Source of the DNA: Candidatus Levybacteria bacterium RIFCSPLOWO2_12_FULL_41_12
GTDB taxonomy: Bacteria > Patescibacteriota > Microgenomatia > Levybacterales > UBA12049
Length of the DNA stretch: 64,000 nucleotides
Direction of reading: 5' to 3'
Assembly: GCA_001784155.1 (NCBI GenBank)
Contig: MFPL01000002.1
Coordinates: 108,520 to 172,519, forward strand
The position numbers and the translations under genes were made by a program. Shown here piece by piece: positions 21,310 through 62,044 of this stretch. Position 1 is the stretch's first letter. The number at the start of each line of letters is the position of its first letter. Under the pieces are notes generated by a model. It was not told the origin of the DNA, did not search any database, and was given only the letters and a program-made list of their open reading frames with translations.

Positions 21310-21380
21310 CGGGATGTGGTTTAATGGTAGAATATGCGGCTGGGGGCCGTATGGTCTGAGTCCGATTCTCAGCATCCCGA
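21310..21380 (+). tRNA. tRNA-Pro (anticodon GGG)
   Basis: Acceptor CGGGAUG/CAUCCCG (7 bp) with discriminator A. U8 present. Short D-arm with G-U pairs. Anticodon stem UGCGG/CCGUA with loop CUGGGGG (U33, GGG anticodon, G37). Variable loop 4 nt. T-arm CUGAG-UCCGAUU-CUCAG. No encoded CCA. Confidence 0.6.
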
Positions 21381-21612
21381 CTGAAGCTCTAAAAACTGTC
21401 GGCTCCCTCCAAAGGCGGGCAGGCGTTTCCAATTATCTTGGGAGAAAAACGCAAAAATTTTAATGTACTCAAATGGCCGCCCTAGTTGTACTCAAACCCT
21501 TTCGGATCTGTCTAAAGCGGCCATTAAAAAACCGAAAGGAATAGTTTGAGTACCGTTTTAATATAGCAGGTTCACAAAGTTTTTCAACTGATATTTTCTA
21601 TATCAGCAGCTA

Positions 21613-23001
21613 TTAGAAAAAGGTTCGCATTTTTTCTATAGAGGTTTTTAAAACATTGTATTCGGTTTTACCATTGTCTTTTTGATGATGAATTTGATTT
21701 CTGATAAATGTATGTATACTAACCTCATTTGCATTTCTTTTATAAGGAGATTTTTTAGGTTCTTTTTTCTCACCAACAAAATAATCATTATCAAAATCTT
21801 TAATCTTCTTATCGTCTCCATTTATGAATTTTAGTTCTTCGAAAAGCTCGTTGTGATATTCTTCGGTCGCAAGATTAAAAGCTAGGTAATTTGTTTCGTT
21901 AGCTGAAATATAGGGTAAAACTCTTTTTTGTATCGCAGATGTATCCATACCGTTGTTATTGATTATGCTAATTCTTACATTACCGTTGTAAAATAATTGT
22001 TTTACTAAAAGAGGAGAGTGGGACGTAAGAATGATTTGTGCTTCTTTGGAAAATTCCAGTAAAAACTTAACAAATTTTTCCTGTAACGTTGGGTGCAGAT
22101 GAAGTTCGGGTTCGTCAATTAAAATTATTAATTGCTTACCGCTCTGCTTGGCTAAGTAAAAAGAATACAAAAGGGCAAAAATCATCTCATAGCCCGAACC
22201 AAGGTCATCCAATAAAATTTGCTGATTATTATCTTTCTTTGTGGCAAAGAATGCGTTTTTAAATGGTTGATAGTTATCTAAAAAATCTAATTTTATTTGA
22301 GAACCACTAATCTCATGAAATTTTTTTACAGCTTCTGACAGGAAGTTATTTTCAACTTTGTCTTTTTTGATTCTAGTATCTAATTCCTCATTCAAATTAT
22401 CAACTTGAGTTTTTTTTAGATATTGATAGCTAAAATCTTCCATCAATCTATCGAATCTAGTTGTGTTATAGGTGCCAGAGCGAATTTGAAAGATACGATT
22501 TTTGTCTAAGAATAAAACATCATTTTCGTCAAATCTTTTTGATTTCCAAGGATTATTTACCCCAACTCTTAAATCAGGACTATCTTCCTTTATGTTTTCG
22601 CCATCTGCTTGGATAAATCTGCGATCAAGAATGATCATGCTAGATAAATATGCCTTAAAATCTCGGGCTCTAATATTTGCTTTGAAAGAAAACCCATGCG
22701 CTTTGAATGATCCTGTAATTGTTTTTGTAACTTCAAAATTAGCTTTTGCATATAATTCAATTAGAATATCATTCTTCGGATCATTGAAGTCGCTAATAGA
22801 TACGGACTCTGTTTTATATTCCAATAATGGAAGTGCGAGAGCATCTAAAAGGGCTGTTTTCCCACTTCCATTTTCGCCCACAAATACATTTAATCCCGAA
22901 CCCTCGTTTATATTATCTGGCGTATTTATATCCTCAATTTCGAAATATTTTTCTGGTGAAAATAATCTAAAATTTTTTATTTTAAGTGATTTTATAAACA
23001 T
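21613..23001 (-). CDS. ABC-type ATPase of the OLD/AriA/PtuA/GajA-like family (no TOPRIM or HNH detected)
   Basis: 462 aa. N-terminal IKNFRLF...VFVGENGSGKTALLDAL (Walker A). Long coiled or insert region. LIILIDEPELHLHPTLQ (Walker B, D-loop, H-loop). About 110-aa C-terminal tail with no recognisable nuclease motif. Confidence 0.65.
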   Translation of the reverse strand: MFIKSLKIKNFRLFSPEKYFEIEDINTPDNINEGSGLNVFVGENGSGKTALLDALALPLLEYKTESVSISDFNDPKNDILIELYAKANFEVTKTITGSFKAHGFSFKANIRARDFKAYLSSMIILDRRFIQADGENIKEDSPDLRVGVNNPWKSKRFDENDVLFLDKNRIFQIRSGTYNTTRFDRLMEDFSYQYLKKTQVDNLNEELDTRIKKDKVENNFLSEAVKKFHEISGSQIKLDFLDNYQPFKNAFFATKKDNNQQILLDDLGSGYEMIFALLYSFYLAKQSGKQLIILIDEPELHLHPTLQEKFVKFLLEFSKEAQIILTSHSPLLVKQLFYNGNVRISIINNNGMDTSAIQKRVLPYISANETNYLAFNLATEEYHNELFEELKFINGDDKKIKDFDNDYFVGEKKEPKKSPYKRNANEVSIHTFIRNQIHHQKDNGKTEYNVLKTSIEKMRTFF

Positions 23002-23058: not shown

Positions 23059-23619
23059 CTAGGATTTTGAGGTAACTTGAGCCAACTTTTCTCTAATTAC
23101 TTGTAATTCTTTAATCCTATACTCGTCATTTTCTTTTTTGACTGGAGCTTTCATTCCTTCCATGTTCAAATTACTTTCGTAGTTAAGCCCATCAACTATT
23201 TGTACTACTTTACTATCGTCTAGAGCTTTATCTGTAAAAGCTTTTAGTTTATGTTGGTCTGTAGTAGTTATTTCAACTTCTATAAATTTTCTCCAAACGC
23301 CATCATGCTCCCATTCTTTTAGTGTTTGAAATTGTTTTTCATTAAGTCCCCACAAAACTCCGGCTACCTGACCTGTTCCCGGTTTTACTGTGTAAGCTCT
23401 AAAATTTGACCCCCAAACTTCCAAAAGAGATTTTCGCGCAACTTCTGGAATTTGTTCTAGATCTTGAATTCCCAAAATCATTCCATCAACTCTTGCTCCA
23501 TATCCGCCGTCTAATTTTAAATCGTCACCTACAAGATTTGAGGCTCTTAAAATATCTACAATTCTAGTTTTTTCCCGATTGGCTCCGTATCCGAAAAATA
23601 AAATCTTTGCCATAAACAA
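23059..23619 (-). CDS. Gamma-glutamyl cyclotransferase (GGCT/AIG2)-like protein
   Basis: 186 aa. N-terminal ILFFGYGANREKTRI matches the AIG2/GGCT YGSN signature. Upstream of and co-oriented with the ATPase, with a 57-nt gap. Confidence 0.5.
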   Translation of the reverse strand: MFMAKILFFGYGANREKTRIVDILRASNLVGDDLKLDGGYGARVDGMILGIQDLEQIPEVARKSLLEVWGSNFRAYTVKPGTGQVAGVLWGLNEKQFQTLKEWEHDGVWRKFIEVEITTTDQHKLKAFTDKALDDSKVVQIVDGLNYESNLNMEGMKAPVKKENDEYRIKELQVIREKLAQVTSKS

Positions 23620-23707
23620 GTTAATATTATGTTATCACAAATTTAAGAAAAGGCTAGATTTTAGATACATATTGACATTATTCTTAAATGTCATCCATAA
23701 TAATCTT

Positions 23708-25078
23708 ATGAACCCATCAACCAATGGTGAACCTCCAGCGGGAGCAACGCCAGCAGAAGCAACAGGACAAGCTCCAGTAATTCCTACTTCATCAGAAACG
23801 CCTCAAACAGACCCAAGTCTTTTATCGCAAGACAGACATGGAGAATCACCCTTGTCTCATGAACCAATACAATCATCTTCGGAGGCTGCTCTTGACATGC
23901 TTGAAGCTAGAAGTAAGAAATTACGGGAAGCAGCGGAAACTCCAACCGCCCCAGAGCAATTCCGCAGTCAATATGAAACAGTGCAGCCGGTTTTATATGC
24001 CGCATCGCACAATAACGTACTTGGAGAGACAGAACGTACTCAAAGAGATGTTGTTGAACGAGGACAAACTTATATTACGAGTGATGCAGGCGCAATACTT
24101 GGATCAGCCGGCCGTCTAGAAAGACAAATAGAAGTTCTTTTAGCTGTAAATGGGATCACGGAAACAGGAATTGGCGATGAAAAGCAAAGACTTTTATCGG
24201 CTAAGGGATCAAAAGGCATGTCTATATCAGGTAAGCTTGCGCAAATGGCGCGTTTAGATTTTTCAACAACCGGAATAGATTCCCGAGGTGATTTAAGGGA
24301 CTCGCTCGAAGAAGCTGTTTTACATGCAAGAGCATTAAATGAAGTTTCTTCTGAGCTTATAGATAAAACACTTCGAAAAATGCGCAAGGATATAATAGGA
24401 TTAGGAGATTTAGATGATTTCCATAAAGCTGCTTATTTAGCTGCAGTAGATCAAGGAACCGATCCGCTAGATTTAGAGGGCGTTGCGGGACAGTTTGCTG
24501 ATTACTTAAAAAGAAAAGACGAAGCCATGAAAGCGGATCCAGATGCACCTGTTTTAGTTCGGTATGCAGAGATGGGTAATAACGTGCATACTATTTTATT
24601 GGAGAAAGCAGGAGAAGGAATTAAATTTAATTTTGATCCGGATTCAGGTAAATATGGAGCTAGTATAGAAGGTTCGGCTGCAACATACGAACCCGATACA
24701 AGCCCGTATACATCTATGTATCCCCAAGACCGTCTAGTTGGAAAAACAGGACCCATAGAAATTCCGCTAGGAAACGCTTTAGACTGGGAAACATATAATG
24801 GATTTACGGATAAGCCTAATTCTCTTGTGCCAATTACTGTTGGTTCGGATGCTATTATTGCTGACGTACGGGATGATCTAGAATATCAAGTTGGAGCTGC
24901 TGAAAAATATGGAGGCGCTGGGAATTTTGAAAACGCTGTAGTGAGGGAAGCAACATTTTTGGGCATAACAGATAAAGTTTTTGCAGGCCCGGAAGGAGAA
25001 AAACTTCTTGCTAATATTGCAGAATTTAATTCTAGACCAAAAACACCTCAGTATTCAGGTAATCGTTTAGATTATTAA
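23708..25078 (+). CDS. Hypothetical protein with disordered Pro/Thr/Ala/Ser-rich N-terminus; GC-richer than surroundings
   Basis: Start set at the ATG at 23708 (MNPSTNGEPPAGATPAEATG...). The longer ORF-track start overlaps the divergent GGCT gene. TTGACA-N18-CATAAT lies just upstream. No TM helices and no recognisable catalytic motifs. Confidence 0.5.
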   Translation: MNPSTNGEPPAGATPAEATGQAPVIPTSSETPQTDPSLLSQDRHGESPLSHEPIQSSSEAALDMLEARSKKLREAAETPTAPEQFRSQYETVQPVLYAASHNNVLGETERTQRDVVERGQTYITSDAGAILGSAGRLERQIEVLLAVNGITETGIGDEKQRLLSAKGSKGMSISGKLAQMARLDFSTTGIDSRGDLRDSLEEAVLHARALNEVSSELIDKTLRKMRKDIIGLGDLDDFHKAAYLAAVDQGTDPLDLEGVAGQFADYLKRKDEAMKADPDAPVLVRYAEMGNNVHTILLEKAGEGIKFNFDPDSGKYGASIEGSAATYEPDTSPYTSMYPQDRLVGKTGPIEIPLGNALDWETYNGFTDKPNSLVPITVGSDAIIADVRDDLEYQVGAAEKYGGAGNFENAVVREATFLGITDKVFAGPEGEKLLANIAEFNSRPKTPQYSGNRLDY

Positions 25079-25183: not shown

Positions 25184-25816
25184 TTACTGCGAGTAAATCT
25201 GTAATCCGCTTGGATCGGAAAGTGTAAGTGTCTGACTGCAGGAATTATAATTACCCGTAACAATAACCGGGAAATTGGAAAATTTTGTATAGTCGACTTT
25301 TGAAGAAAAGGGCAGAGAAATTACGCTTTCATCATTTTTAACTAACACAACTTTATTGTGGGTTTGTTTGGGAGCAAAATAATCTAGGAATTGGGATAAA
25401 ACCGGAATTCCCGAAGACTCCTGCTCCATAACATTCAAAGTTTTGACAGTACCTATATAACTCTGTACTCCTTTTTCGCAAAGAATTTTTCCTCCTCCGA
25501 AAACTCCAAATACTCCAAGAGCCAAAGCTACTCCGGCAATTCCAAGACTTCCCTTAAGCGTGAAGGAAAATGCTTTCTGTCTTTTAATATCTTCCAAAAG
25601 TTCGACAATTTTTCGAAGGGGATTTCCTACGCGTACATCCAAAAGATCATCTTGACTCTTATGATATCTGACGTTGTCTCCGAAAAATTTATCGAGCGCG
25701 CCCTGAGGCTTTGGAGGACTGCCGGGTTTTTCGACATGAACAAAATGCCCCTCGCTGTCTCTTGGCTTACTTTCCGCAATTGTACTTTTTATCTCGCTTT
25801 TTACTTTTTCGGCCAT
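25184..25816 (-). CDS. Hypothetical single-pass membrane protein
   Basis: 210 aa. Central Gly/Ala-rich TM helix (GSLGIAGVALALGVFGVFGGG). Downstream of and co-oriented with the JAB gene. Confidence 0.45.
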   Translation of the reverse strand: MAEKVKSEIKSTIAESKPRDSEGHFVHVEKPGSPPKPQGALDKFFGDNVRYHKSQDDLLDVRVGNPLRKIVELLEDIKRQKAFSFTLKGSLGIAGVALALGVFGVFGGGKILCEKGVQSYIGTVKTLNVMEQESSGIPVLSQFLDYFAPKQTHNKVVLVKNDESVISLPFSSKVDYTKFSNFPVIVTGNYNSCSQTLTLSDPSGLQIYSQ

Positions 25817-25877
25817 ACTTTAATATAGCTTTGGATCTATAGCAATTGCAAGTTTACCTACTTATAACTTTGTTAAA

Positions 25878-26720
25878 TCAAGCTAGACGTGTCAGCGTCG
25901 CAGCAGTCGAAGTTTCATTGAAGTCTCCTTCGTACAATCCAAACTTTCTATTTCTGGCTTCGTCTATCAATTCGTCTCTCCAAATTCCACGAATTCTATC
26001 TTCAGATGTTCCTTTTTGTTTTTCTTTGTTCAATAAATGTAGCCCTCTACGACCAGCACTTCCTCTTCGTGGGTTTCTGTATTCTTCGTCCCAATTATTT
26101 GCAAGTTCAATATCCGAATTTTCTGCTACAACAAGTAAATAAATTTTATCTGATGCGATAACAATTGAGCAGATTGCAGAAGCACGACCGTCAGGCCTCT
26201 TTATTTGTGAAGCAAGATTATCAAAGTCAGGACCGCTGAATATAGCACCACTACTTGGGTGAGTATGTATTATTCCAAATAATTCTTCCTGTGGGAAAAA
26301 TTTAAATCCTGGGGACTGTTCTGTAGTAATTAAGTTCCTACCGAATACATAGTAGTCTGAAGCCCAATCAGGTTTATCACGTCGCCAATCTTCCTTTTGA
26401 AGTAAATCCTGAAGTCTCTGGGCTGTTTCTGATTCAGATAAACCTGTTAAATCCTCAAAAAGTGTTGCTCCCACAAAGTCTCTATGTTGTCCCTTGAATG
26501 CACCATCAATAGAAAGTTTTTCCTGAGTTCTCGTTAAAAATGCCATCTGTTCTGCATCTGTTTCGCTCTCCTGTTTTTTCATTCCATGAAACCCTGATAT
26601 AAGCTCAGGTTCATCGATCGCCACTGTTCTTGGAAGTTCGTCAAATCTCTTTCCTTCTAACGATAAAAGCGTAGGATGGGCTAAACCCTCTTGTCCTTCT
26701 ATGTTGGTTATATCCGACAT
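25878..26720 (-). CDS. JAB/MPN (JAMM) metalloprotease-domain protein, RadC/Mov34-like motif
   Basis: 280 aa. EELFGIIHTHPSSGAIFSGPD fits the JAMM motif E-x(n)-H-x-H-x7-S-x2-D exactly. The N-terminal roughly 130 aa are unassigned. Confidence 0.55.
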   Translation of the reverse strand: MSDITNIEGQEGLAHPTLLSLEGKRFDELPRTVAIDEPELISGFHGMKKQESETDAEQMAFLTRTQEKLSIDGAFKGQHRDFVGATLFEDLTGLSESETAQRLQDLLQKEDWRRDKPDWASDYYVFGRNLITTEQSPGFKFFPQEELFGIIHTHPSSGAIFSGPDFDNLASQIKRPDGRASAICSIVIASDKIYLLVVAENSDIELANNWDEEYRNPRRGSAGRRGLHLLNKEKQKGTSEDRIRGIWRDELIDEARNRKFGLYEGDFNETSTAATLTRLA

Positions 26721-27510
26721 AGGGTTATTATAGTAAATTCATTTTTAAATATCTCTATAATCAAGTGGGACTGGCTTGTGGATTGAGCTGGAACTATGAG
26801 GAACTAACCGAGGGTTTTTACCCTCGGTTTTTAAACCACAACTTGTGGGTACCACAATTTTGTGATAGCTCGAAGCTAAACTGTGGGTTTTGTGGATTTT
26901 AATTTTTTACCCACAAAACAGTTGTGGAGCGGCGTCCGCCGCCCCCGCCCCTCGGGATTTACGCCCTGAAAAGGAGGACTGCCGTCACGCCAAACTCTAC
27001 TTACCACCGACTTTCGGATAGGCAGTCCGACCCAAGCGAGCACCGCGAAAATTACTTTTAATTGAAATCCCGGCGGTGCGAGCCATTATGATGTCTCCCA
27101 AAGTTCTTGCCTAAATAGGGGTAGAATATCGCGGCGGGGGCAAAAGCGGATTACCCCGCCGACTGCAGGCGGTTCTAAGTTAGAAGAAAGTTAGCCCCGC
27201 CGAAGCGGGGCGAGTAAGAGACTGTAAAGAGTTTCTAAAAATGTACATCTGTGGGCGAAGCCGCCCCTAGGCGGCTCTCTCGCATAAAGGCGGGGTCGCC
27301 GCTCCTTTTCGCGGGTGGGTGGGTTATTAATTTGGTATAATAAAAATCGCGCGTTCCTTAGGGCATAAAATACCCCGAAGCAAAGTTTCACTTGCGACGG
27401 GGCAGGCAAAAGAGCGAGGCCGAAGGCCGAGCGGTACAATAATAGGACGAGCGAAGCGAGGACTACCTTTTAATAAAAGAAGTTCTAACTTTTTCGTATA
27501 TCACGACCAA
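26721..27510. other. About 0.8 kb noncoding block, locally GC-rich and dense in GC stem-loops; candidate structured RNA or foreign remnant, unassigned
   Basis: No credible ORF. ORFs 27191..27439 and 27511..27804 look spurious. Many perfect GC hairpins (CCGAGGG-UUUUUA-CCCUCGG, CCCCGC-CGAA-GCGGGG, GCCGCC-CCUAG-GCGGC). Long-range complementarity between CCACAACUUGUGGGUA (26835-50) and UACCCACAAAACAGUUGUGG (26909-28). GC runs such as GGCGGCGTCCGCCGCCCCCGCCCCTCGGG. Confidence 0.4.
26809..26831 (+). terminator. Intrinsic-terminator-like hairpin (CCGAGGG UUUUUA CCCUCGG UUUUU)
   Basis: 7-bp GC-rich stem followed by U5 on the plus strand. It would terminate a short plus-strand transcript starting after a TATAAT at 26753. 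Confidence 0.4.
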
Positions 27511-27724
27511 TTACCTTGGCCTTCTAATTAACGGTCCCAAGCGGGGAATCCACCTGTCATGTATGTAGGTGGGGCTTGCCGTTGAACTTTTATGGTTCCT
27601 GGGTTCTGTGTAGGAATTCAAGCGAGCTGTTCTTTGTGGACTTGCTTTCCAAGCTTCACCATAGTCTTCTGGCATAAGAGGACGACCCCTGTGAGATTGT
27701 ATTTCTACTTCAAGCCAAGACATA

Positions 27725-28189
27725 TTACCTCTTTGGAGATTGTTTCTTGCGTCTGGATTTTCCGCCCATTCCCACTTTCCGTCTTTCTCTTGCTCTTTGA
27801 TCACGAGTCAAAAGTCCTTGCTTCTTAAGAAGCGGTCTTAAGGATGCGTCAAGTTCCGAAAAAGCCCTTGCAATCCCCATAACCGCAGCGTCCAATTGGC
27901 TCGAAGTTCCTCCACCATGAACCCTGATGGTAGCTGAGAATTTGTTAAGACTATCTGTAATTTTAAAAGGTAATTCATATCTGGCCCTTGCCACTTCTCC
28001 ACCGAAATATTCTTTTATTGCACGCCCATTAACCACCAAATCACCTTTTTTAAGGGTAACTTCGCCGAACTTTAGATTATCCGGTAATTTGGCATAAAGC
28101 CTTACCCTGGCTACAGCTTCTCTTCTTCGACCCACTGCAGAAACGTAAACTTTAGTGCCTTTTTTATTTGTAATCTTTTCTTCAGCCAT
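27725..28189 (-). CDS. rpsI: 30S ribosomal protein S9 (N-terminally extended)
   Basis: 154 aa ending ...GGKSRRKKQSPKR. The S9 core is GGGTSSQLDAAVMGIARAF. Confidence 0.9.
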   Translation of the reverse strand: MAEEKITNKKGTKVYVSAVGRRREAVARVRLYAKLPDNLKFGEVTLKKGDLVVNGRAIKEYFGGEVARARYELPFKITDSLNKFSATIRVHGGGTSSQLDAAVMGIARAFSELDASLRPLLKKQGLLTRDQRARERRKVGMGGKSRRKKQSPKR

Positions 28190-28191
28190 AT

Positions 28192-28605
28192 TTATGCTTT
28201 CTTAAATTTTTCTTGATATTTATGTTCTTCTCCCGAAAATACGAAAAGCCTTTTTAACATTTGGTCCCTAAGTTTATTCTGAGGAAGCATCCCCTTAACA
28301 GCGTGGATTATTATTTCTTCAGGCTTTCTCGCTCTTAGCTGCTCCAATGTTTCAGACTTATATCCTCCCGGAAAACCAGAATGCCTTGAATAAACTTTAT
28401 TTTTTTCTTTTGTTCCGGTTACTCTTACTTCTTTCGCATTAACAACTACAACGTAATCCCCGCAATCAAGATGTCTTACGAAATAAGATTTGCTTTTCCC
28501 CATCAATAATTTAGCAATATCGGTAGATATTCTTCCCAAGATTTTGTCCCCTACGTTAATTAAATGCCATTCCCTTTGTATGTCTTTGTCTCTTGTTGCT
28601 TTCAT
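28192..28605 (-). CDS. rplM: 50S ribosomal protein L13
   Basis: 137 aa. WHLINVGDKILGRISTDIAKLLMGK is the typical L13 N-terminus. Confidence 0.9.
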   Translation of the reverse strand: MKATRDKDIQREWHLINVGDKILGRISTDIAKLLMGKSKSYFVRHLDCGDYVVVVNAKEVRVTGTKEKNKVYSRHSGFPGGYKSETLEQLRARKPEEIIIHAVKGMLPQNKLRDQMLKRLFVFSGEEHKYQEKFKKA

Positions 28606-56567: not shown

Positions 56568-59500
56568 TCTTAACCCCTACTGTCGGCTCTTCTGCTCCAG
56601 CTTGTGCTACATGAAGATCCGAGCCTTTTTCAGCTACTACCTTATCTCCGCCCGCTGCTTCCTGAAGATCATGAGCCTCTTTTCCCAATTTTTCATCGGC
56701 CTTCTGCTCAACAATTGCCTCACCCAATGGCTCTGTAAGAAGGGGTTCAGGCGTAACTGTCGCTCCCATTGGAACAACATTAAGTCCTAGCGCCTGAAGC
56801 TCTTTTATAAGAACTTTAAATGATTCCGGAACCTTAGGTGTAGGAATTGAAGTTCCCTTAACGATTGCCTCAAATGCTTTAGCGCGACCGACAACGTCGT
56901 CTGACTTAATTGTCAACATTTCCTGAAGAGTATAGCGCGCCCTGTGTGCTTCAAGCGCCCATACTTCCATTTCTCCAAGGCGCTGTCCTCCCATTTGCGC
57001 TTTTCCTCCAAGAGGCTGCTGTGTAACCAAAGAGTATGGTCCGGTGGAGCGGGCGTGGGTCTTATCTTCAACCATATGAATTAGCTTCATAACATATTCA
57101 ACCCCTACAACTACCGGATTCTCGTATGGCTCCCCAGTTCTTGCGTCAAAAAGAGTTGTCTTTCCTTTTTCCGGAAGTCCGGCACTCTTTAGACTCTCTG
57201 TAATTCTTTCTTCGTCAATCTTTTCAAAAACAGGAACTGCAATTTTCTTGCCTAATTTTAATGCTGCCCACCCCAGATGTGCTTCGAGAAGTTGTCCCAG
57301 ATTCATTCTCGCAAGTACCGAGAAGGGGGAAATAATAATGTCCACGGGCGTTCCGTCTTCCAGGTACGGCATGTCTACTTCAGGAACAATTTTTGAAATA
57401 ACTCCTTTATTTCCGTGTCTTCCCGCGAGTTTATCTCCCACCACAACGTGACGGAATTGTGCGACCTCAACAATAATCTTTCGAAATGTACCCGGCTCAA
57501 GCTCGTCTCCTTTTTTGCGGTCAAGAATTTGAACGCTTATTACGGTTCCTCGTTCTCCATTGGGCATTCTAAGCGAAGTGTCCCGTACTTCCCGAGCCTG
57601 TTCGCCGAAAATAGCGCGTAGAAGCCGCTCTTCTGCAGTAAGTTCTGTTTCGCCTTTTGGTGCAATTTTTCCGACCAGAATGTCTCCGGGTCCGACTTCC
57701 GATGAAACAACTACGATTCCTTCTTCATCAAGGTTTGCTAAATCTTCCTCAGAAACGTTAGGGATGTCCCTAGTTGTCTCCTCAGGTCCAAGCTTTGTCT
57801 CAACAACTGCAGCTTCGTATTTCTCAATGTGTATCGAGGAAAGAGAATCTTCTTTTACCATTCTATCCGAAATAACGATAGCGTCTTCATAGCCTAAGCC
57901 GTCAAAGGAGGCATATGCTATTACTAAGTTTTGCCCCAATGCCAATTCTCCGTTTTGAGAAGAAGGTCCGTCTATTAAAATCTCGCCTTTCTTGAGCTTT
58001 TGTCCGTTTTTTACCAATGTTCGCTGAGTATATGCAGTGGCTTGAGACGTTCTTCGGAATGAGGAAACCTTATATTCCTCCTCTTTCTTTCCCTTTCCCT
58101 TAAAGATTACTTTTTCTGCATCTGCATAAATCACTTCTCCATCCTCTGGCGCCCTAACGACTCTGGACATTACTGCGGAAACAGTACCTTCCATTCCTGT
58201 TCCGACTATCGGAGAATGAGGCGAAACCAAAGGTACTGCCTGAGACTGCATGTGGGTACCCATAAGAGCTCTGTTTGCTTCATCGTGAGATACAAAAGGA
58301 ATAAGTGAGGCTGCAGTTCCTACGACTTGGCGTGGCATCATATCGATAAATTCGATTTTCTCTTTTTCTACCTCTATAAATTCTCCCTTATATCTCGCAG
58401 GAATCCTTTCTCCCTCTATCGTCTGATCTTCATTAATCACTCCAGAATGGGTAACGTAATGGTCTCTCTCGTCAGCTGCGTCCATATAAACGATTTCATC
58501 TGTCGCTTTAGCGTGAACAATCTTGCCTTTTTTTGCCTGTTCTACTTTTCTATATGGTGTCTCAAGAAATCCGTACTGATTGATTCTTGTATACAGTGAA
58601 AGATATGTCACAAGACCGATATTCGGACCTTCAGGACTTCTTATGGGACAAATTCTTCCGTATTGAGAAGAATTAATGTCTCTTATAGAGAAAGCTGCGC
58701 GCTCCCTCGTTATTCCGCCTGTTCCCATAACAGTCAAACGGTTAAGATTGTCTACTTCGGATAATGGGTTCGTTTGATCTAGAATTGTTGAAAGCTGGGA
58801 TGTTCGGAAGAATTCGTTAATCGATGCCATAATTGGCCTTGCATTGATTAATCCTGAAATGGTAACCGGCTGATCTGCCTGAATAAGGCTCATTCTTTCC
58901 TTAATTGAGCGCTCAAGACGCAGAACTCCGACCCGAAATGCAGTTGATGCTACAAGCTCTCCGACGCGTCTTACACGCCTGTTTGCCAAAGAGTCAATAT
59001 CATCCACTCCGTCTTTTCCGCGAGCAAGCTCTATAAGAAAAGCAATAGTTCCCACAATGTCGTCAACTGTTAGGATCCTCTGATCAGATGGAACAAATCC
59101 CGGAATACCTTGCAGCTTTTTATTGATCTTATAGCGTCCTACATCTCCCAGATCATACCTTCTGTTATTGAAGAACGTTCCGGAAAAGTTTTCTCTTACT
59201 TTCTCGAGAACTATTGGTTCGCCCGGATGCATTTTCTTAAATATCTCAACGAGCGCTTCGTTTGTATTGGTAACTTCATCCTTAAGAAGTGTGTTTTGAA
59301 TATAGGAAGTCTTGTCATCCGGCTCAACTGCCTTAAATCTTTCCTTTATGGCATCGGAGTCTGAAATTCCAATTGCCCGAAGGAAGGTGGTAGCCAGGAA
59401 TTTTCTTCTTCTGTCAATTTTTACGGTTATGGTCTCGTATCTTGTTGTTGAAAATTCAAGCCACGATCCGTGGACCGGGCGTATCTCTGCTGTATAAAGA

Positions 59501-59970
59501 GTCTGTCCGGTAACAGGGTCCTGCGTAGCTGTAAAAAACGCTCCGGGGGAGCGCACGAGTTGACTGACTATAGCTCTTTCAATTCCGTTAATAATAAAAG
59601 TTCCCCGTTCTGTCATCTTTGGAACGTCGCCTAAGAAGACTTCCTGATTTATTTTTTCGTCTGTTTTTTTATTGGTTAGTGTGGCTTTGACGTATAAGGG
59701 GGAGTCGTAGGTAAGGCCTTTGTAGATAGATACCTCAGGACTATTGGTAGGCTTTCCAATTCTATAATCCTTAAGTTCCAGATTCCAATTCTTTCCCGTA
59801 AAGTCATCCACAGGAGATATTTCAGAGAGTATTTCTCCAATTCCGCGGTCTTCAAACCATTTGTATGATTCCTTTTGAAGAGAGAGTAGATCAAGTTCAA
59901 GTAGTACGGGATACTTCCTGCCCCAGTCCTCTCGAGTAATGTGGTCTGTGTTCTTATCTGCCTTAGCCAT
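56560..59970 (-). CDS. rpoB: DNA-directed RNA polymerase subunit beta
   Basis: 1136 aa with conserved beta-subunit regions (FGEMEVWALEAH, GGQRLGEME). Overlaps rpoC by 8 nt. Confidence 0.97.
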   Translation of the reverse strand: MAKADKNTDHITREDWGRKYPVLLELDLLSLQKESYKWFEDRGIGEILSEISPVDDFTGKNWNLELKDYRIGKPTNSPEVSIYKGLTYDSPLYVKATLTNKKTDEKINQEVFLGDVPKMTERGTFIINGIERAIVSQLVRSPGAFFTATQDPVTGQTLYTAEIRPVHGSWLEFSTTRYETITVKIDRRRKFLATTFLRAIGISDSDAIKERFKAVEPDDKTSYIQNTLLKDEVTNTNEALVEIFKKMHPGEPIVLEKVRENFSGTFFNNRRYDLGDVGRYKINKKLQGIPGFVPSDQRILTVDDIVGTIAFLIELARGKDGVDDIDSLANRRVRRVGELVASTAFRVGVLRLERSIKERMSLIQADQPVTISGLINARPIMASINEFFRTSQLSTILDQTNPLSEVDNLNRLTVMGTGGITRERAAFSIRDINSSQYGRICPIRSPEGPNIGLVTYLSLYTRINQYGFLETPYRKVEQAKKGKIVHAKATDEIVYMDAADERDHYVTHSGVINEDQTIEGERIPARYKGEFIEVEKEKIEFIDMMPRQVVGTAASLIPFVSHDEANRALMGTHMQSQAVPLVSPHSPIVGTGMEGTVSAVMSRVVRAPEDGEVIYADAEKVIFKGKGKKEEEYKVSSFRRTSQATAYTQRTLVKNGQKLKKGEILIDGPSSQNGELALGQNLVIAYASFDGLGYEDAIVISDRMVKEDSLSSIHIEKYEAAVVETKLGPEETTRDIPNVSEEDLANLDEEGIVVVSSEVGPGDILVGKIAPKGETELTAEERLLRAIFGEQAREVRDTSLRMPNGERGTVISVQILDRKKGDELEPGTFRKIIVEVAQFRHVVVGDKLAGRHGNKGVISKIVPEVDMPYLEDGTPVDIIISPFSVLARMNLGQLLEAHLGWAALKLGKKIAVPVFEKIDEERITESLKSAGLPEKGKTTLFDARTGEPYENPVVVGVEYVMKLIHMVEDKTHARSTGPYSLVTQQPLGGKAQMGGQRLGEMEVWALEAHRARYTLQEMLTIKSDDVVGRAKAFEAIVKGTSIPTPKVPESFKVLIKELQALGLNVVPMGATVTPEPLLTEPLGEAIVEQKADEKLGKEAHDLQEAAGGDKVVAEKGSDLHVAQAGAEEPTVGVKNE

Positions 59971-60153
59971 TTATGAAAAAACCCTAAAGAAGCCTATATC
60001 AACAAAAAAAATGCACAAGGTGCACTAGCCTACATATAAAAAGCTTCCCCTAAAGTAATTCCTTTATACCAGAAGAGAACGGAGGCTGTCAAGGAGTAAA
60101 CAATAGAATTCTCTTGCCTTGCCATTGGGTTTGGGATACTCTTAAAATATCCT

Positions 60154-61200
60154 ATGGATGGGCTTGACCCCGCTATCAAGAGGAAATTAAAAAAAGAAGA
60201 GCTTCGCTACGCAATGGACGATCGGGACGGCTTTATCAGGCAAAAGTTCGGACGCGACTTTAGATACTACGACACAGAGCTTAAAAGAATAAGTGACAAG
60301 AAAACACTTGAAAGAATTGAGGCTTTGGGAATTCCCCCGGCATGGACCAAAGTCTGGATTTCTCCCCAGAAAAATACCCACCTTCAGGCTACAGGATATG
60401 ACGAAAAGAAAAGAAAGCAATACATTTATCACCCCGACTGGATAAAAATTTCACAGGAAAATAAATTCGGGAAGATGGTAGACTTCGGCCTTTCTCTTCC
60501 CAAAATAAGAAGCAAGGTCCGCTACGATATGAGTGGCACCATTATGGATAAGAAAAAGATTCTCGCGACTATAGTTTGGCTCCTTGAGCATACATTTATA
60601 AGAATAGGAAATGAGCAGTACAGCCGCGGAAACGAGTCATATGGATTGACTACGCTAAGGAACAAACACGTCCAGGTACGCGGAGATAAAGTAAAATTTG
60701 AGTTCGTCGGAAAATCAGGCGTAGAGGCAGAGCTATCAATTTCAAACCCGACAATTGCCAAGACCATAAGGCGCTGCATCGAGCTTCCGGGCTACGAACT
60801 ATTTCAGTTCATTGATGATGAGGGAGAGAAAAGAGTGGTGGATTCAGAAGACGTAAATGAATTCCTAAAAGAGGTTACGAAGGAGGATTTTACTGCGAAG
60901 GACTTCAGAACCTGGGGTGCGAGCGACCTCTCCGCCAATTATTTCTATAAAGCCGGGCATAGCGATGATAAGAAAGTTCTTAAGGCGACTATAAAAGAGG
61001 CTATAAAAACAGTCTCGGGATATCTTAATAATACAGTTACAGTTTGCCGCTCTTACTACATTCACCCGGCTGTTATAAAGACTTATGAAGAAAATATTCT
61101 AGTCCCCCACTTTGGAAGACATTCGGGAAGAAAGCCTGCGATAAGTGGCCTTTCGTGGGATGAAGTGGCGTTAGTCCGCCTCCTTCAGAAATACTCCTAA
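60154..61200 (+). CDS. DNA topoisomerase IB (poxvirus/bacterial TopIB type)
   Basis: 348 aa. IRIGNEQYSRGNESYGLTTLRNKHV, FEFVGKSG, TWGAS and C-terminal TVCRSYYIHP carrying the likely active-site Tyr. Confidence 0.65.
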   Translation: MDGLDPAIKRKLKKEELRYAMDDRDGFIRQKFGRDFRYYDTELKRISDKKTLERIEALGIPPAWTKVWISPQKNTHLQATGYDEKKRKQYIYHPDWIKISQENKFGKMVDFGLSLPKIRSKVRYDMSGTIMDKKKILATIVWLLEHTFIRIGNEQYSRGNESYGLTTLRNKHVQVRGDKVKFEFVGKSGVEAELSISNPTIAKTIRRCIELPGYELFQFIDDEGEKRVVDSEDVNEFLKEVTKEDFTAKDFRTWGASDLSANYFYKAGHSDDKKVLKATIKEAIKTVSGYLNNTVTVCRSYYIHPAVIKTYEENILVPHFGRHSGRKPAISGLSWDEVALVRLLQKYS

Positions 61201-61461
61201 TTACTTCTTGTGGATATATTTGCTCCAGGCTTTTTTGAAGTACGGGAGGGAAAGCGTTGAGAGAAGAAAACCTACTGAGGGAACTATGGCATTAAGCCAG
61301 GGTTCAATTCTTACTACATATTTTAAATAAAGCGCGATCGCGAGATATGTGAGGAGCGCCAGAACTACTTTCCTCGTGATTGAAGTTTCCCAAGCTTTGT
61401 CTTGCTCCACCTTACTGTTTCGCTCTTCTATTTTTGCGACTCTTTCTTCAAGACTTACCAT
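61201..61461 (-). CDS. Small hypothetical membrane protein (86 aa, 2 TM)
   Basis: Coiled-coil N-terminus followed by two hydrophobic helices. Immediately upstream of def. Confidence 0.35.
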   Translation of the reverse strand: MVSLEERVAKIEERNSKVEQDKAWETSITRKVVLALLTYLAIALYLKYVVRIEPWLNAIVPSVGFLLSTLSLPYFKKAWSKYIHKK

Positions 61462-61468
61462 AAATAAA

Positions 61469-62044
61469 TTATATCAATTTGTATTCTATTTTTGTGGTTT
61501 TGGAGTTTTTCAACTGCTGAGGGGAGTTTCTTATGTTTTTTCTATAGTGCTTTTTTGTAATTATCTTGCTGTAGTCACTGACTTTTTCCATAAATTCCAC
61601 GCCATTTAGGTGATCCATCTCATGGAATATAATTCTTGCCAGAATCCCGTCTGCCTTTAATCTAAATAGCAAACCGCGCTCGTCATAGGCTTCGACTTGG
61701 ACTTCCCTTGGTCGTAAAACAGGACCGAATAGATCTCCTATGCTTCCGCAGCCTTCGTAAATGAGCGACTTATCTTTTGATTGGAAAGTGATTTTGGGAT
61801 CTATATAGACTCTTACTTTATCTGTCTTCCCGAGCTTTCTAGCCTTCGTAGTTCTAGGGTGAGTTATGAAAACCATATAGTTTTCGCCTATTTGGGGCGC
61901 GGCAATTCCTATTAGATCTGCTTTATGCATGGAATCAATTAAATTCCGGACCAACTTCTTGAACTCAGGCGATTTAAAGTTTTTAATAAGCCTATTCTTC
62001 GCTTTAAGTCTTCGGTCCCCTGCCTGAATAATCTTTTTTACCAC
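61469..62044 (-). CDS. def: Peptide deformylase
   Basis: 191 aa. GIAAPQIG, EGCGS and HEMDHLNG motifs. Confidence 0.9.
   Translation of the reverse strand: MVKKIIQAGDRRLKAKNRLIKNFKSPEFKKLVRNLIDSMHKADLIGIAAPQIGENYMVFITHPRTTKARKLGKTDKVRVYIDPKITFQSKDKSLIYEGCGSIGDLFGPVLRPREVQVEAYDERGLLFRLKADGILARIIFHEMDHLNGVEFMEKVSDYSKIITKKHYRKNIRNSPQQLKNSKTTKIEYKLI

What the first reader, a model, noticed from the sequence alone, without database searches (positions are those of the whole stretch)
25184..26720. JAB/MPN metalloprotease-domain protein co-transcribed with a single-pass membrane protein
The 280-aa protein contains a textbook JAMM motif (HTHPSSGAIFSGPD = HxHx7Sx2D, with upstream Glu) in its C-terminal half. 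The RadC-like HxHPSG context is also present. It is followed by a 210-aa protein with a Gly/Ala-rich TM helix. JAB domains in prokaryotes usually work with ubiquitin-like or other conjugation systems (Cap3, Bil/Bub-type), but here there is no E1, E2 or Ubl partner. It might act on the neighbouring disordered-N-terminus protein, or be a stand-alone toxin or immunity pair.
Basis: partly seen in the sequence, partly recalled or inferred. Interest (0 to 1): 0.55.

Follow-up and report, generated by a model that had tools for sequence, protein, structure and literature searches.

The report
Rare stand-alone JAMM metallopeptidase gene cassette
The 280-aa protein is a real but very divergent zinc (JAB/MPN) hydrolase from a tiny family found only in a few uncultured groundwater-type bacteria; its pairing with the membrane protein next door looks like an accident of insertion, and its substrate is unknown.

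Summary
Two minus-strand ORFs lie at 25878-26720 (280 aa) and 25184-25816 (210 aa, one TM helix). HTHPSSGAIFSGPD is at residues 152-165.

By itself the motif is at chance level, about one per window. However, H152, H154, S162 and D165 are invariant in all 17 relatives found. A 17-sequence AlphaFold model (pLDDT 86.6) has JAMM/MPN proteins as nearly all of its top-50 PDB matches, though weakly. The true catalytic Glu is E57 (ExxGxL strand), so the "N-terminal 130 aa" belong to the same domain.

The family is tiny: about 20 sequences among ~15 billion proteins. It scores below Pfam Prok-JAB threshold and is not RadC. No Ubl, E1 or E2 lies nearby.

The membrane protein is an unrelated Levybacteria-wide protein with at least 282 homologues. 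In another Levybacterium it has no JAB neighbour. There its upstream region (a CCACAA-repeat cluster plus a TTGCAATTGC promoter-like box) is contiguous; in the window the JAB gene splits it. This suggests a ~1-kb single-gene insertion.

Divergent relatives of the JAB gene sit directly behind trxB in 3, probably 4, loci.

Verdict: a new, accessory variant of a known enzyme kind, function unknown, modest interest. The adjacent GC-rich 1-kb non-coding stretch remains unexplained.

The parts
25878..26720 (-). Gene for the 280-aa divergent JAB/MPN (JAMM) metallohydrolase. The MPN core spans about residues 30-200, with an insertion at about residues 91-140, followed by a C-terminal two-helix plus beta-hairpin extension (residues 221-278).
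   Evidence: ORF. Prok-JAB 21.9 bits. Family alignments. AF2 pLDDT 86.6. Foldseek matches to JAMM/MPN structures. The exact protein is deposited as a hypothetical protein of Candidatus Levybacteria and is seen on 60 contigs.
26226..26267 (-). JAMM motif H152-T-H154-x7-S162-x2-D165: the zinc ligands plus the Ser.
   Evidence: H152, H154, S162 and D165 are invariant in 17 of 17 family members.
26550..26552 (-). Codon of E57, the predicted catalytic Glu. The motif is ExxGxL in relatives and EQMAFL here.
   Evidence: Invariant in alignments A2 and A4. It lies at the start of predicted strand 59-65, as in JAMM enzymes.
25184..25816 (-). Gene for a 210-aa single-pass membrane protein conserved across Levybacteria. 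It has a cytoplasmic N-terminus, a TM helix at residues ~89-111, and an outside C-terminal domain with two invariant Cys (C113, C193). It is a neighbour of the JAB gene, not a demonstrated partner.
   Evidence: At least 282 homologues, some named Levybacteria, Woesebacteria or Patescibacteria. Alignment A8. Hydropathy. No Pfam, PDB or NCBIfam match.
25822..25852 (-). Promoter-like element of the membrane-protein gene: TTGCAA-18-TATATT, ending 5 nt before the ATG. The core CTTGCAATTGC is conserved.
   Evidence: Scan. The identical 11-mer lies at the same place upstream of the orthologue in L003 and L004. It has a single exact match in the window.
26776..26927 (-). Cluster of 7 CCACA[AC]/[GT]TGTGG motifs, now upstream of the JAB gene. 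It is homologous to the distal upstream region of the membrane-protein gene in another Levybacterium.
   Evidence: This is the only stretch of the window with at least 4 such motifs per 200 bp. It aligns with L003 4860-4960, between tRNA-Val and the membrane-protein gene.
25853..26827 (-). Inferred ~975-bp single-gene insert. It comprises a hairpin (CCGAGGG-TAAAAA-CCCTCGG, 26808-26827), a TATAAT box 6 nt before the ATG, the JAB gene, and 25 nt of 3' flank.
   Evidence: In L003 the sequences that flank this stretch in the window are contiguous (...GTGGGTTTAAAG|ACTTGCAATTGC). This is an inference from a single comparator species.
26721..27724 (.). About 1 kb between rpsI and the JAB gene with no credible ORF. 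Its distal ~800 bp are GC-rich (0.46-0.57 against 0.40 overall). It is unexplained and is listed only as context.
   Evidence: ORF lists. No Rfam, tRNA or tmRNA match. MFE z-scores -2.6 and -4.9. GC profile.

Best explanation
The 280-aa gene encodes a catalytically intact but very divergent JAB/MPN (JAMM) zinc hydrolase. It belongs to a tiny, fast-evolving, patchily distributed family seen only in a few uncultured bacteria; the only named source is Candidatus Levybacteria (Patescibacteria/CPR).

It is a single-domain, soluble, cytoplasmic enzyme. E57 would activate the water, H152, H154 and D165 would hold the zinc, and S162 would stabilise the intermediate. An insertion at about residues 91-140 and the conserved Q-x-x-R-P-D-G-R loop after the S..D helix sit at the positions where AMSH-type enzymes carry their substrate-recognition inserts.

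It works alone: no Ubl, E1 or E2 lies nearby. Its most likely activity is to cut an extended peptide or isopeptide tail from an unknown cytoplasmic substrate encoded elsewhere.

In divergent relatives the gene lies directly behind trxB, partly with overlapping stop and start codons, which is probably the ancestral position. In this genome it sits as a ~1-kb single-gene cassette inside the upstream regulatory region of an unrelated, clade-wide membrane-protein gene, so the JAB/membrane pairing is incidental.

Shown: the fold (as a prediction), motif conservation, rarity, lack of a conserved partner, and the split regulatory region. Inferred: peptidase chemistry, direction of the move, and independence from the membrane protein.
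For: Identity as a JAMM enzyme:
- The motif residues are invariant in 17 homologues, and E57 sits in an ExxGxL strand.
- The AF2 model has pLDDT 86.6 and pTM 0.86, with the order b1-a1-b2(E57)-b3-b4 ... b(HxH)-a(S..D)-b-b.
- Nearly all of the top-50 Foldseek PDB matches are JAMM/MPN proteins: AMSH/Sst2, CSN5, BRCC36, PfJAMM1, AfJAMM, Rpn11 and Prp8-Jab1.
- There are weak Prok-JAB and PADLOC JAB hits.

Rarity:
- 2 hits in the word-indexed search.
- 12 in 1.84 billion cluster representatives, 9 of them at E<1e-10.
- 10 with the profile search.
- None in the GTDB species representatives by pattern scan, in IMG/VR, or in phage and plasmid records.
- The two subgroups are homologous over their full length (hhalign 97%).

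No conserved partner:
- Neighbours differ between loci.
- There is no Ubl-like GG-ended ORF.

trxB linkage:
- L001 has a 16-nt gap. L014 has a 4-nt overlap. L007, L008 and L009 have an 84-aa two-TM ORF in between. The P0128 contig has a 320-aa upstream gene with a 1-nt overlap, identity unverified.
- The linkage is kept although the TrxBs are only 44-70% identical and the JABs only 28-31%.

Incidental pairing with the membrane protein: and the split upstream region.

The gene is intact: the identical 280-aa protein is seen on 60 contigs.
Against: - No activity, metal or substrate data exist.
- Sequence similarity to solved JAMMs is confined to the motif, and the Foldseek scores are weak (best E 1.4e-2, TM 0.24-0.51).
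- According to Iyer et al. 2011 (PMC3239186), JAB peptidase activity is so far known only on Ubl tails, and no Ubl is found here. A non-peptide substrate is therefore a live option.
- The insertion model rests on one comparator species (L003 and L004) and cannot exclude a deletion in that lineage.
- Most relatives lie on 1-3 kb contigs, so partners a few genes away would be missed.
- The 61-nt gap without a terminator allows read-through into the membrane-protein gene.
Confidence: 0.6

Rival explanations
1. Redox-linked processing enzyme. The JAMM hydrolase works functionally with the thioredoxin system. For example, it might mature or recycle a thioredoxin-system client or a thiocarboxylate/sulfur-carrier-like protein, or be redox-regulated itself. 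Under this view the window copy has merely lost the cis-linkage to trxB.
For: - trxB lies immediately upstream on the same strand in 3 verified loci and 1 probable locus of the window-like subgroup, twice with overlapping stop and start codons.
- The linkage persists across TrxB divergence down to 44% identity.
- In L007 the gene sits among oxidative-stress genes: MsrA, cupredoxin, TrxB, Ni-SOD and its S26 peptidase.
Against: - No trxB is present in the 64-kb window.
- The second subgroup has other neighbours: a phosphoribosyltransferase, MotA/ExbB and EamA.
- Genes in compact genomes often overlap without any functional link.
- The family is far rarer than trxB.
- No sulfur-carrier or Ubl ORF was found.
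- No precedent was found in the literature.
Confidence: 0.15
2. Accessory conflict gene. The JAMM hydrolase is a defence, counter-defence or mobile-element-associated effector, as RadC-like or Cap3-like JABs are in other bacteria, and it acts on a foreign or conjugated target.
For: - The distribution is patchy and the sequence evolves fast: JABs are 28-31% identical where adjacent TrxBs are 44-70%.
- It looks like a single-gene cassette insertion.
- It lies near other accessory genes: HicAB, a DUF87 ATPase and an integrase in L007, and an AriA/PtuA-like AAA_21 ATPase about 3 kb away in the window.
Against: - No CD-NTase, Cap2, E1/E2 or Ubl gene lies in any locus.
- PADLOC JAB hits are marginal (E 0.016-0.04, motif region only).
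- There is no match in phage, plasmid or IMG/VR collections.
- No mobility gene lies next to it in the window.
Confidence: 0.15
3. One reading: the JAB and the single-pass membrane protein form a co-transcribed functional pair. The protease would process or regulate the membrane protein's cytoplasmic N-terminus, or the two would be a toxin-immunity pair.
For: - The genes are on the same strand with a 61-nt gap and no terminator-like hairpin between them.
- The CCACAA regulatory cluster of the membrane-protein gene now lies upstream of the JAB gene, so both genes may respond to the same regulator.
- One relative has a small two-TM ORF directly upstream of its JAB gene.
Against: - The membrane protein has at least 282 homologues, against about 20 for the JAB.
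- An orthologue of the membrane-protein gene has no JAB neighbour.
- No homologue of the membrane protein is found in 9 other JAB loci.
- The closest JAB relative is followed by a different gene.
- The membrane-protein gene keeps its own conserved promoter-like box, ending 5 nt before its ATG.
Confidence: 0.07
4. Not a peptidase. Like the RadC-type and some archaeal JAB clades, the pocket would bind a nucleotide, a nucleic-acid strand or another small amide, and the enzyme would be a metal-dependent hydrolase of a non-protein substrate.
For: - Iyer et al. 2011 (PMC3239186) argue that JAB peptidase activity is restricted to Ubl tails, and that RadC-type and some archaeal JABs act on nucleic acids or nucleotides.
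- No Ubl is present here.
- The HxHPS(S)G context resembles RadC's HNHPSG; this comparison is from memory.
Against: - There is no RadC family hit.
- No HhH or other nucleic-acid-binding domain is detected.
- The best structural matches are deubiquitinase-type JAMMs, not RadC.
Confidence: 0.1

Closest known systems
Prok-JAB (Pfam PF14464), the stand-alone prokaryotic JAMM/MPN+ metallopeptidases such as AfJAMM (AF2198), PfJAMM1 and HvJAMM1
   Same: - The E...HxH...S..D catalytic set.
- A single-domain soluble protein.
- A predicted MPN fold.
- The best family-level hit is Prok-JAB.
   Different: - It scores below the Pfam gathering threshold (21.9 against 25 bits), and only 3 of 17 members hit at E<=0.1.
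- At 280 aa it is about twice the size of the minimal 110-130-aa enzymes, with a ~50-residue insertion between the Glu strand and the HxH strand and a ~60-residue C-terminal extension.
- No SAMP, ThiS or MoaD-type partner is encoded nearby.
AMSH / AMSH-LP / Sst2 (eukaryotic K63-specific JAMM deubiquitinases)
   Same: - They are the top structural matches (4zft, 4msq, 2znr, 7l97).
- They also carry insertions around the catalytic core, at positions comparable to residues ~91-140 and the loop after the S..D helix.
   Different: - The match is weak: E 1.4e-2, TM 0.24-0.37, 14-16% identity.
- No second zinc site was tested.
- No ubiquitin is present in this organism's locus.
- The lineage is bacterial (CPR).
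Cap3 (CBASS) and BilC/Bub-type JAB deconjugases of bacterial Ubl-conjugation defence systems
   Same: A JAB catalytic motif, marginal hits to PADLOC JAB models and to BilC (8tyx, E 2.1 over 21 residues).
   Different: None of the defining operon partners (CD-NTase plus Cap2; Ubl plus E1 plus E2) is present in the window or in the 21-kb L007 locus.
Mec+ / QbsD-type JAMMs of sulfur-carrier pathways (CysO-CysM-Mec+, QbsCDE)
   Same: A bacterial JAMM that works on a small-protein tail. These are linked to sulfur/redox metabolism, loosely echoing the trxB linkage seen here. The comparison is from background knowledge and from PMC3239186.
   Different: No ThiS, MoaD or CysO-like GG-ended carrier, no E1-like adenylyltransferase and no CysM lies nearby. 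The neighbour is thioredoxin reductase, which is not part of those systems.
RadC (PF04002 / TIGR00608)
   Same: The JAB superfamily, and an H-x-H-P-S-(S)-G sequence context.
   Different: - There is no hit to the RadC models.
- There is no N-terminal HhH domain.
- The family is not widely conserved.
- No RadC structure appears among the listed (top-50) fold matches.

Membership tests
JAB/MPN+ (JAMM) metallohydrolase superfamily | The catalytic motif: a Glu on strand 2, then HxH, S and D (E...HxHx(6-7)Sx2D). | tested here: met
   E57, H152, H154, S162 and D165 are present. H, H, S and D are invariant in 17 of 17 members, and E is invariant wherever it is covered. The spacing is x7 in the window and x6 in all relatives.
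JAB/MPN+ (JAMM) metallohydrolase superfamily | The MPN (deaminase-like) alpha/beta fold. | tested here: met
   The AF2 model has pLDDT 86.6 and pTM 0.86. Nearly all of the top-50 Foldseek PDB matches are JAMM/MPN proteins, although scores are weak (E 1.4e-2, TM up to 0.51 relative to the target). This is a predicted structure, not a solved one.
JAB/MPN+ (JAMM) metallohydrolase superfamily | Zinc binding and hydrolytic activity. | not testable with these tools
   This needs purified protein, metal analysis and activity assays.
Pfam Prok-JAB (PF14464) | A score at or above the curated gathering threshold (25 bits). | tested here: not met
   The score is 21.9 bits, E 1.6e-4, covering only residues 144-187. 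Only 3 of 17 family members hit at E<=0.1.
RadC | A match to the RadC JAB models (PF04002, TIGR00608). | tested here: not met
   No hit at E<=1 in Pfam or at E<=0.1 in NCBIfam.
RadC | [quoted passage not shown] | tested here: not met
   No HhH domain is detected. The model shows the N-terminus as part of the MPN fold. The family has about 20 members in ~15 billion proteins.
Cap3 of CBASS | An operon with a CD-NTase and a Cap2 (E1/E2-like) gene. | tested here: not met
   The neighbours in the window are rpsI, the membrane protein, the 499-aa ORF, a GGACT-like protein and an AAA_21 ATPase. The gene list of L007 contains no such families.
Bil/Bub-type bacterial ubiquitination-like systems | Adjacent Ubl (beta-grasp, GG tail), E1 and E2 genes. 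| tested here: not met
   No GG-ended 50-140-aa ORF lies near the JAB gene in the window or in 6 JAB loci. No ThiF or UBC families appear in the listed neighbours. Most loci are short, so this does not prove absence.
Mec+/QbsD sulfur-carrier JAMMs | An adjacent ThiS/MoaD-like carrier protein and an adenylating enzyme. | tested here: not met
   The scans are the same as for the Bil/Bub row. The recurrent neighbour is TrxB.
Two-gene toxin-antitoxin or toxin-immunity module (JAB plus membrane protein) | The two genes co-occur and stay adjacent across genomes. | tested here: not met
   The membrane protein has at least 282 homologues, against about 20 for the JAB. The L003 and L004 orthologue has no JAB neighbour. 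No membrane-protein homologue is found in the other JAB loci.

The most novel reading that the evidence does not exclude
A CPR-restricted JAMM family that works without any ubiquitin-like partner. It would be coupled, ancestrally in an operon, to thioredoxin reductase. That would make it either a redox-linked (iso)peptidase with a new class of substrate, or a JAMM that hydrolyses a non-protein amide or nucleotide. Either outcome would extend JAB chemistry beyond Ubl tails.
Probability: 0.15. Interest if true: 0.55.

Novelty: new variant of a known kind. Interest (0 to 1): 0.3.

Why it matters
Characterised JAB peptidases all cut the tails of ubiquitin-like proteins. An intact, conserved JAMM with no Ubl, E1 or E2, found in organisms with minimal genomes, is a small test case for what else this fold can do.

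The repeated trxB-JAB adjacency gives a concrete hypothesis that can be tested.

The locus also shows how a single accessory gene can be dropped between the distal and proximal parts of a resident gene's regulatory region in a CPR genome.

In practical terms, the result warns against reading adjacency in one genome as a functional pair. Overall the finding is an uncharacterised divergent member of a well-known superfamily, so its immediate importance is modest.

Tried and rejected
- **RadC:** rejected. There are no model hits.
- **Cap3, Bil or Mec+ systems:** rejected as memberships, because the partners are absent.
- **Degraded trxB in the 1-kb gap upstream of the JAB gene:** rejected. tblastn with three TrxBs finds nothing there or anywhere in the window.
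- **The 84-aa ORF between trxB and the JAB gene in L007 as a Ubl:** rejected. It is a two-TM hydrophobic peptide.
- **Phage, plasmid or viral origin of the JAB gene:** no support. The BFVD fold hits are only generic JAB-containing phage proteins.
- **The 1-kb gap as a known RNA:**
  - No Rfam hit at gathering threshold or at E<=10, and no tRNA or tmRNA.
  - ARAGORN at a lowered threshold calls a permuted tmRNA at 26654-27229. It has a nonsensical tag, overlaps the JAB CDS, and is rejected as a false positive.
  - No ORF longer than 104 aa appears under genetic code 11 or 4.
  - There is no match in phages and no paralogue in the window.
- **First AF2 run with 3 sequences:** it failed (pLDDT 40.7) and was not used.
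- **Libraries and searches that were unavailable or empty:**
  - Pattern scans of the GTDB genomes found no family member, and the metagenome scan returned only a contig already in hand.
  - Literature searches for JAB in Patescibacteria or for a JAMM-thioredoxin reductase link found nothing relevant.
Full report
**What is at the coordinates.** The window is a Candidatus Levybacteria (Patescibacteria/CPR) chromosome segment. The 210-aa protein is 100% identical to a protein deposited as [quoted passage not shown]. The 280-aa protein is deposited as "hypothetical protein A2186_00765" and is seen on 60 contigs.

On the minus strand the gene order is:
- rplM (28192-28605) and rpsI (27725-28189);
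- a ~1-kb stretch with no credible ORF (26721-27724);
- the 280-aa ORF (25878-26720);
- a 61-nt gap;
- the 210-aa ORF (25184-25816).

A convergent plus-strand ORF follows at 23579-25078. Its real start is probably the ATG at 23708, which would give 456 aa. Further downstream lie a GGACT-like ORF, an AAA_21 ATPase, tRNA-Pro and recA.

**Is the motif real?** HTHPSSGAIFSGPD is at residues 152-165 (window 26226-26267). A relaxed version of the pattern is expected about once per shuffled window in six frames (0.98 +/- 1.1), so the string alone proves nothing. The following results show that it is genuine.

Homologues are extremely few:
- 2 in the word-indexed search of 5.8 billion clusters;
- 12 in an exhaustive HMMER pass over 1.84 billion representatives, 9 of them at E<1e-10;
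- 10 with the family profile.

In the resulting 17-sequence alignment H152, H154, S162 and D165 are the only invariant columns. A Glu in an E-x-x-G-x-L context (E57; EQMAFL here, EWSGYI or EVGGVL in relatives) is conserved in every sequence that covers it. This is the canonical JAMM Glu, 95 residues upstream of the HxH. The Glu pair next to the motif (E145/E146) is not the catalytic one. The spacing is x7 in the window and x6 in all relatives.

Family-library hits are weak. Pfam Prok-JAB gives 21.9 bits against a cut-off of 25 (E 1.6e-4), and PADLOC JAB models give E 0.016-0.04. There is nothing in NCBIfam or PHROGs and no sequence-level match to solved structures beyond the motif.

**Structure.** AlphaFold with 3 sequences failed (pLDDT 40.7). 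With the 17-sequence alignment it gave pLDDT 86.6 and pTM 0.86. The order of elements is:
- strand 32-35, helix 38-54;
- strands 59-65 (directly after E57), 68-75 and 87-90;
- helices 96-115, strands 123-127 and 139-143;
- strand 145-153 (ending in the HxH), helix 163-170 (starting at S162..D165);
- strands 171-198.

This is the MPN topology with an insertion at about residues 91-140. A C-terminal extension of two helices (221-257) and a beta-hairpin (260-278) follows; Y263 in that hairpin is nearly invariant.

The two sequence subgroups of the family are homologous along their whole length (hhalign probability 97%, E 3.9e-11).

**Partners and context.** No E1, E2 or Ubl is present. The window neighbours are listed above. 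A scan for 50-140-aa ORFs ending in GG found none near the JAB gene in the window or in six family loci. The 21-kb locus around the relative P0123 contains no ThiF, UBC or ThiS families.

The membrane protein is a different story from the JAB. It has at least 282 homologues at E<=0.01, named Levybacteria, Woesebacteria or Patescibacteria where named. It has a strongly conserved juxtamembrane and TM segment and two invariant extracytoplasmic Cys. In a 66%-identical orthologue locus (L003 and L004) it is preceded by tRNA-Val and a divergent signal peptidase gene, not by a JAB gene.

Conversely, tblastn with the membrane protein, the 499-aa ORF, the GGACT-like protein and the ATPase finds nothing in the nine other JAB loci. 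The closest JAB relative (P0002, 45% identity) is followed by a different gene. The JAB/membrane-protein pair is therefore not a conserved module. The idea that the JAB acts on the neighbouring disordered protein has no support.

**A recurrent neighbour: trxB.** Several members of the window-like subgroup have trxB directly upstream on the same strand:
- P0002 (L001) has the C-terminus of thioredoxin reductase 16 nt upstream.
- P0124 (L014) has a full trxB whose stop overlaps the JAB start by 4 nt.
- P0123 (L007, L008, L009) has trxB, then an 84-aa two-TM ORF, then the JAB gene.
- P0128 has a 320-aa upstream gene overlapping by 1 nt. No DNA was available, so its identity is unverified.

The TrxBs are 44-70% identical while the adjacent JABs are only 28-31% identical. 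The linkage has therefore survived substantial divergence, and the JAB evolves much faster than TrxB.

The exceptions are as follows. P0129 has an unrelated divergent gene upstream. The second subgroup has a phosphoribosyltransferase, MotA/ExbB or EamA upstream. The window contains no trxB at all, and the 1-kb gap is not a trxB relic.

**How the gene came to sit here.** In L003 the region upstream of the membrane-protein gene reads tRNA-Val, then a cluster of CCACAA/TTGTGG motifs, then ...GTGGGTTTAAAG|ACTTGCAATTGC..., and then the ATG 26 nt after the box.

In the window the same CTTGCAATTGC box (25842-25852; its only exact occurrence in 64 kb) still lies directly upstream of the membrane-protein ATG. 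It forms a TTGCAA-18-TATATT promoter-like site ending 5 nt before the ATG. The homologous CCACAA cluster is different: its 7 motifs at 26776-26922 form the only such cluster in the window, and it now lies upstream of the JAB gene. It aligns with the L003 cluster.

Between ...GTGGTTTAAAA and ACTTGCAATTGC the window carries about 975 bp. This stretch contains a perfect hairpin (26808-26827), a TATAAT box 6 nt before the JAB ATG, the JAB gene and 25 nt of 3' flank.

The simplest reading combines three points: the family is rare, the membrane protein is ubiquitous, and the closest relative sits behind trxB. Together they point to a single-gene insertion, that is, a relocation from a trxB-linked position into the regulatory region of the membrane-protein gene. 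This rests on one comparator species, so a deletion in that lineage is not excluded.

Both genes have a -10-like box 5-6 nt before the ATG and no Shine-Dalgarno sequence. Several other genes in this window do too, which suggests separate leaderless transcripts. The promoter scan as a whole is at chance level (4 sites found against 4.6 expected). Co-transcription can therefore be neither shown nor excluded.

**Mechanism.**
- Shown: a complete and conserved JAMM catalytic set, an MPN fold prediction, no signal peptide or TM segment in the JAB, and an intact gene in the population.
- Inferred from the established JAMM mechanism: zinc is held by H152, H154 and D165, E57 activates the water, and S162 stabilises the tetrahedral intermediate. 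The substrate is an extended peptide or isopeptide tail. The family-specific insertion (~91-140) and the conserved Q172-x-x-R-P-D-G-R loop are the likely recognition elements, by analogy with Ins-1 and Ins-2 of AMSH-type enzymes.

The substrate is unknown and is not encoded next door. Iyer et al. 2011 (PMC3239186) note that JAB peptidase activity is so far confined to Ubl tails, and that RadC-type and some archaeal JABs probably act on nucleic acids or nucleotides. A non-peptide substrate is therefore a serious rival.

The other rivals are a redox-linked role with the thioredoxin system, suggested by the trxB linkage, and an accessory conflict role. The conflict role is suggested by the patchy distribution, fast evolution, cassette-like insertion, and proximity to HicAB, integrase and DUF87 in L007 and to an AriA/PtuA-like ATPase in the window.

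**Comparison with known families.** The protein works like a stand-alone prokaryotic JAMM of the Prok-JAB type (AfJAMM, PfJAMM1). It belongs to the JAB superfamily by motif and predicted fold. It fails the Pfam family threshold, is twice the size of the minimal enzymes, and lacks their Ubl context. It is not RadC, Cap3, BilC or Mec+/QbsD by the tests listed in the membership table.

**Novelty and verdict.** This is a new, very small and divergent variant of a well-known enzyme superfamily, annotated so far only as "hypothetical protein".

Interest is modest (0.3). The trxB linkage and the Ubl-independent context are the only features that could lead somewhere new.

Noticed in passing
window 26721-27724 (especially 26900-27530): About 1 kb between rpsI and the JAB gene has no credible ORF under genetic code 11 or 4. 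GC is 0.46-0.57 against 0.40 for the window. It contains several GC-rich hairpins, for example GCCCCGC-UUCG-GCGGGGC at 27194-27211 on the minus strand. The MFE z-score is -2.6 on the minus strand and -4.9 on the plus strand. There is no Rfam, tRNA or tmRNA match, no paralogue in the window and no phage match. This is unusual for a compact CPR genome. It could be an unknown structured RNA or a relic. No homologues could be fetched to test covariation.
   Followed up: partly
window 26776-26927; L003 4860-4960: A cluster of 7 CCACA[AC]/[GT]TGTGG motifs, partly as palindromes and resembling DnaA-box cores (TCCACA), occurs only once in the window. It is conserved upstream of the membrane-protein gene in another Levybacterium. 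It is probably a binding-site array for a regulator. The cumulative GC skew shows no turning point here, so it is unlikely to be oriC.
   Followed up: partly
window 26523-26551 versus L002 348/349: A public re-assembly scaffold of the same population (ENA ERZ28564079, identical to the window apart from this gap) lacks 29 bp, starting at the E57 codon. This frameshifts the JAB gene into 61-aa and 216-aa ORFs. The intact 280-aa protein is on 60 contigs, so this is a minority variant or an assembly artefact. The deletion is flanked by a short CAG repeat.
   Followed up: yes
L001 2-451; L014 357-1280; L007 8798-9727: Thioredoxin reductase lies immediately upstream of JAB-family genes in three verified loci and one probable locus, twice with overlapping stop and start codons, despite 44-70% TrxB identity. 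In L007 the surrounding genes are MsrA, cupredoxin, PAP2, Ni-SOD with an S26 peptidase, and HicAB.
   Followed up: partly
window 21613-23001 (-): A 462-aa AAA_21/AAA_15 ATPase matches the AriA, PtuA, GajA and NsnB defence models (E down to 9e-28). It lies in a low-GC stretch (0.345), directly next to tRNA-Pro (21310-21381) and recA. No partner nuclease gene is evident. It may be a small defence islet.
   Followed up: no
window 23059-23619 (-): A 186-aa ORF has sub-threshold similarity to gamma-glutamyl(amine) cyclotransferase (GGACT/AIG2; 20.8 bits against a cut-off of 22.8). That enzyme family degrades gamma-glutamyl-epsilon-lysine isopeptides, which is a curious neighbour for an isopeptidase-type fold. 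It is not found in other JAB loci.
   Followed up: partly
window 23579-25078 (+): The 499-aa ORF most likely starts at the ATG at 23708, giving 456 aa that begin MNPSTNGEPP. That ATG is preceded by TTGACA-18-CATAAT ending 6 nt before it. The protein has a Pro/Thr/Ser/Glu-rich N-terminus and no Pfam, NCBIfam, PHROG or PDB match.
   Followed up: partly
window, starts of recA, the AAA ATPase, the 456-aa ORF, the membrane protein and the JAB gene: Many genes have a -10-like hexamer only 5-7 nt upstream of the ATG and no Shine-Dalgarno sequence. This suggests frequent leaderless mRNAs in this organism.
   Followed up: no
window ~58000-62000: The cumulative GC skew falls steadily from 1 to ~60 kb and then turns upward, a possible replication-origin-type switch near 60 kb. 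Nearly all genes from 25 to 60 kb are on the minus strand.
   Followed up: no
L013 96-956 (-): The gene divergent from the JAB relative P0129 encodes a 286-aa protein with a twin-arginine-like signal (RREFLKNAATAGGWAAAGFALG) and no Pfam match.
   Followed up: no
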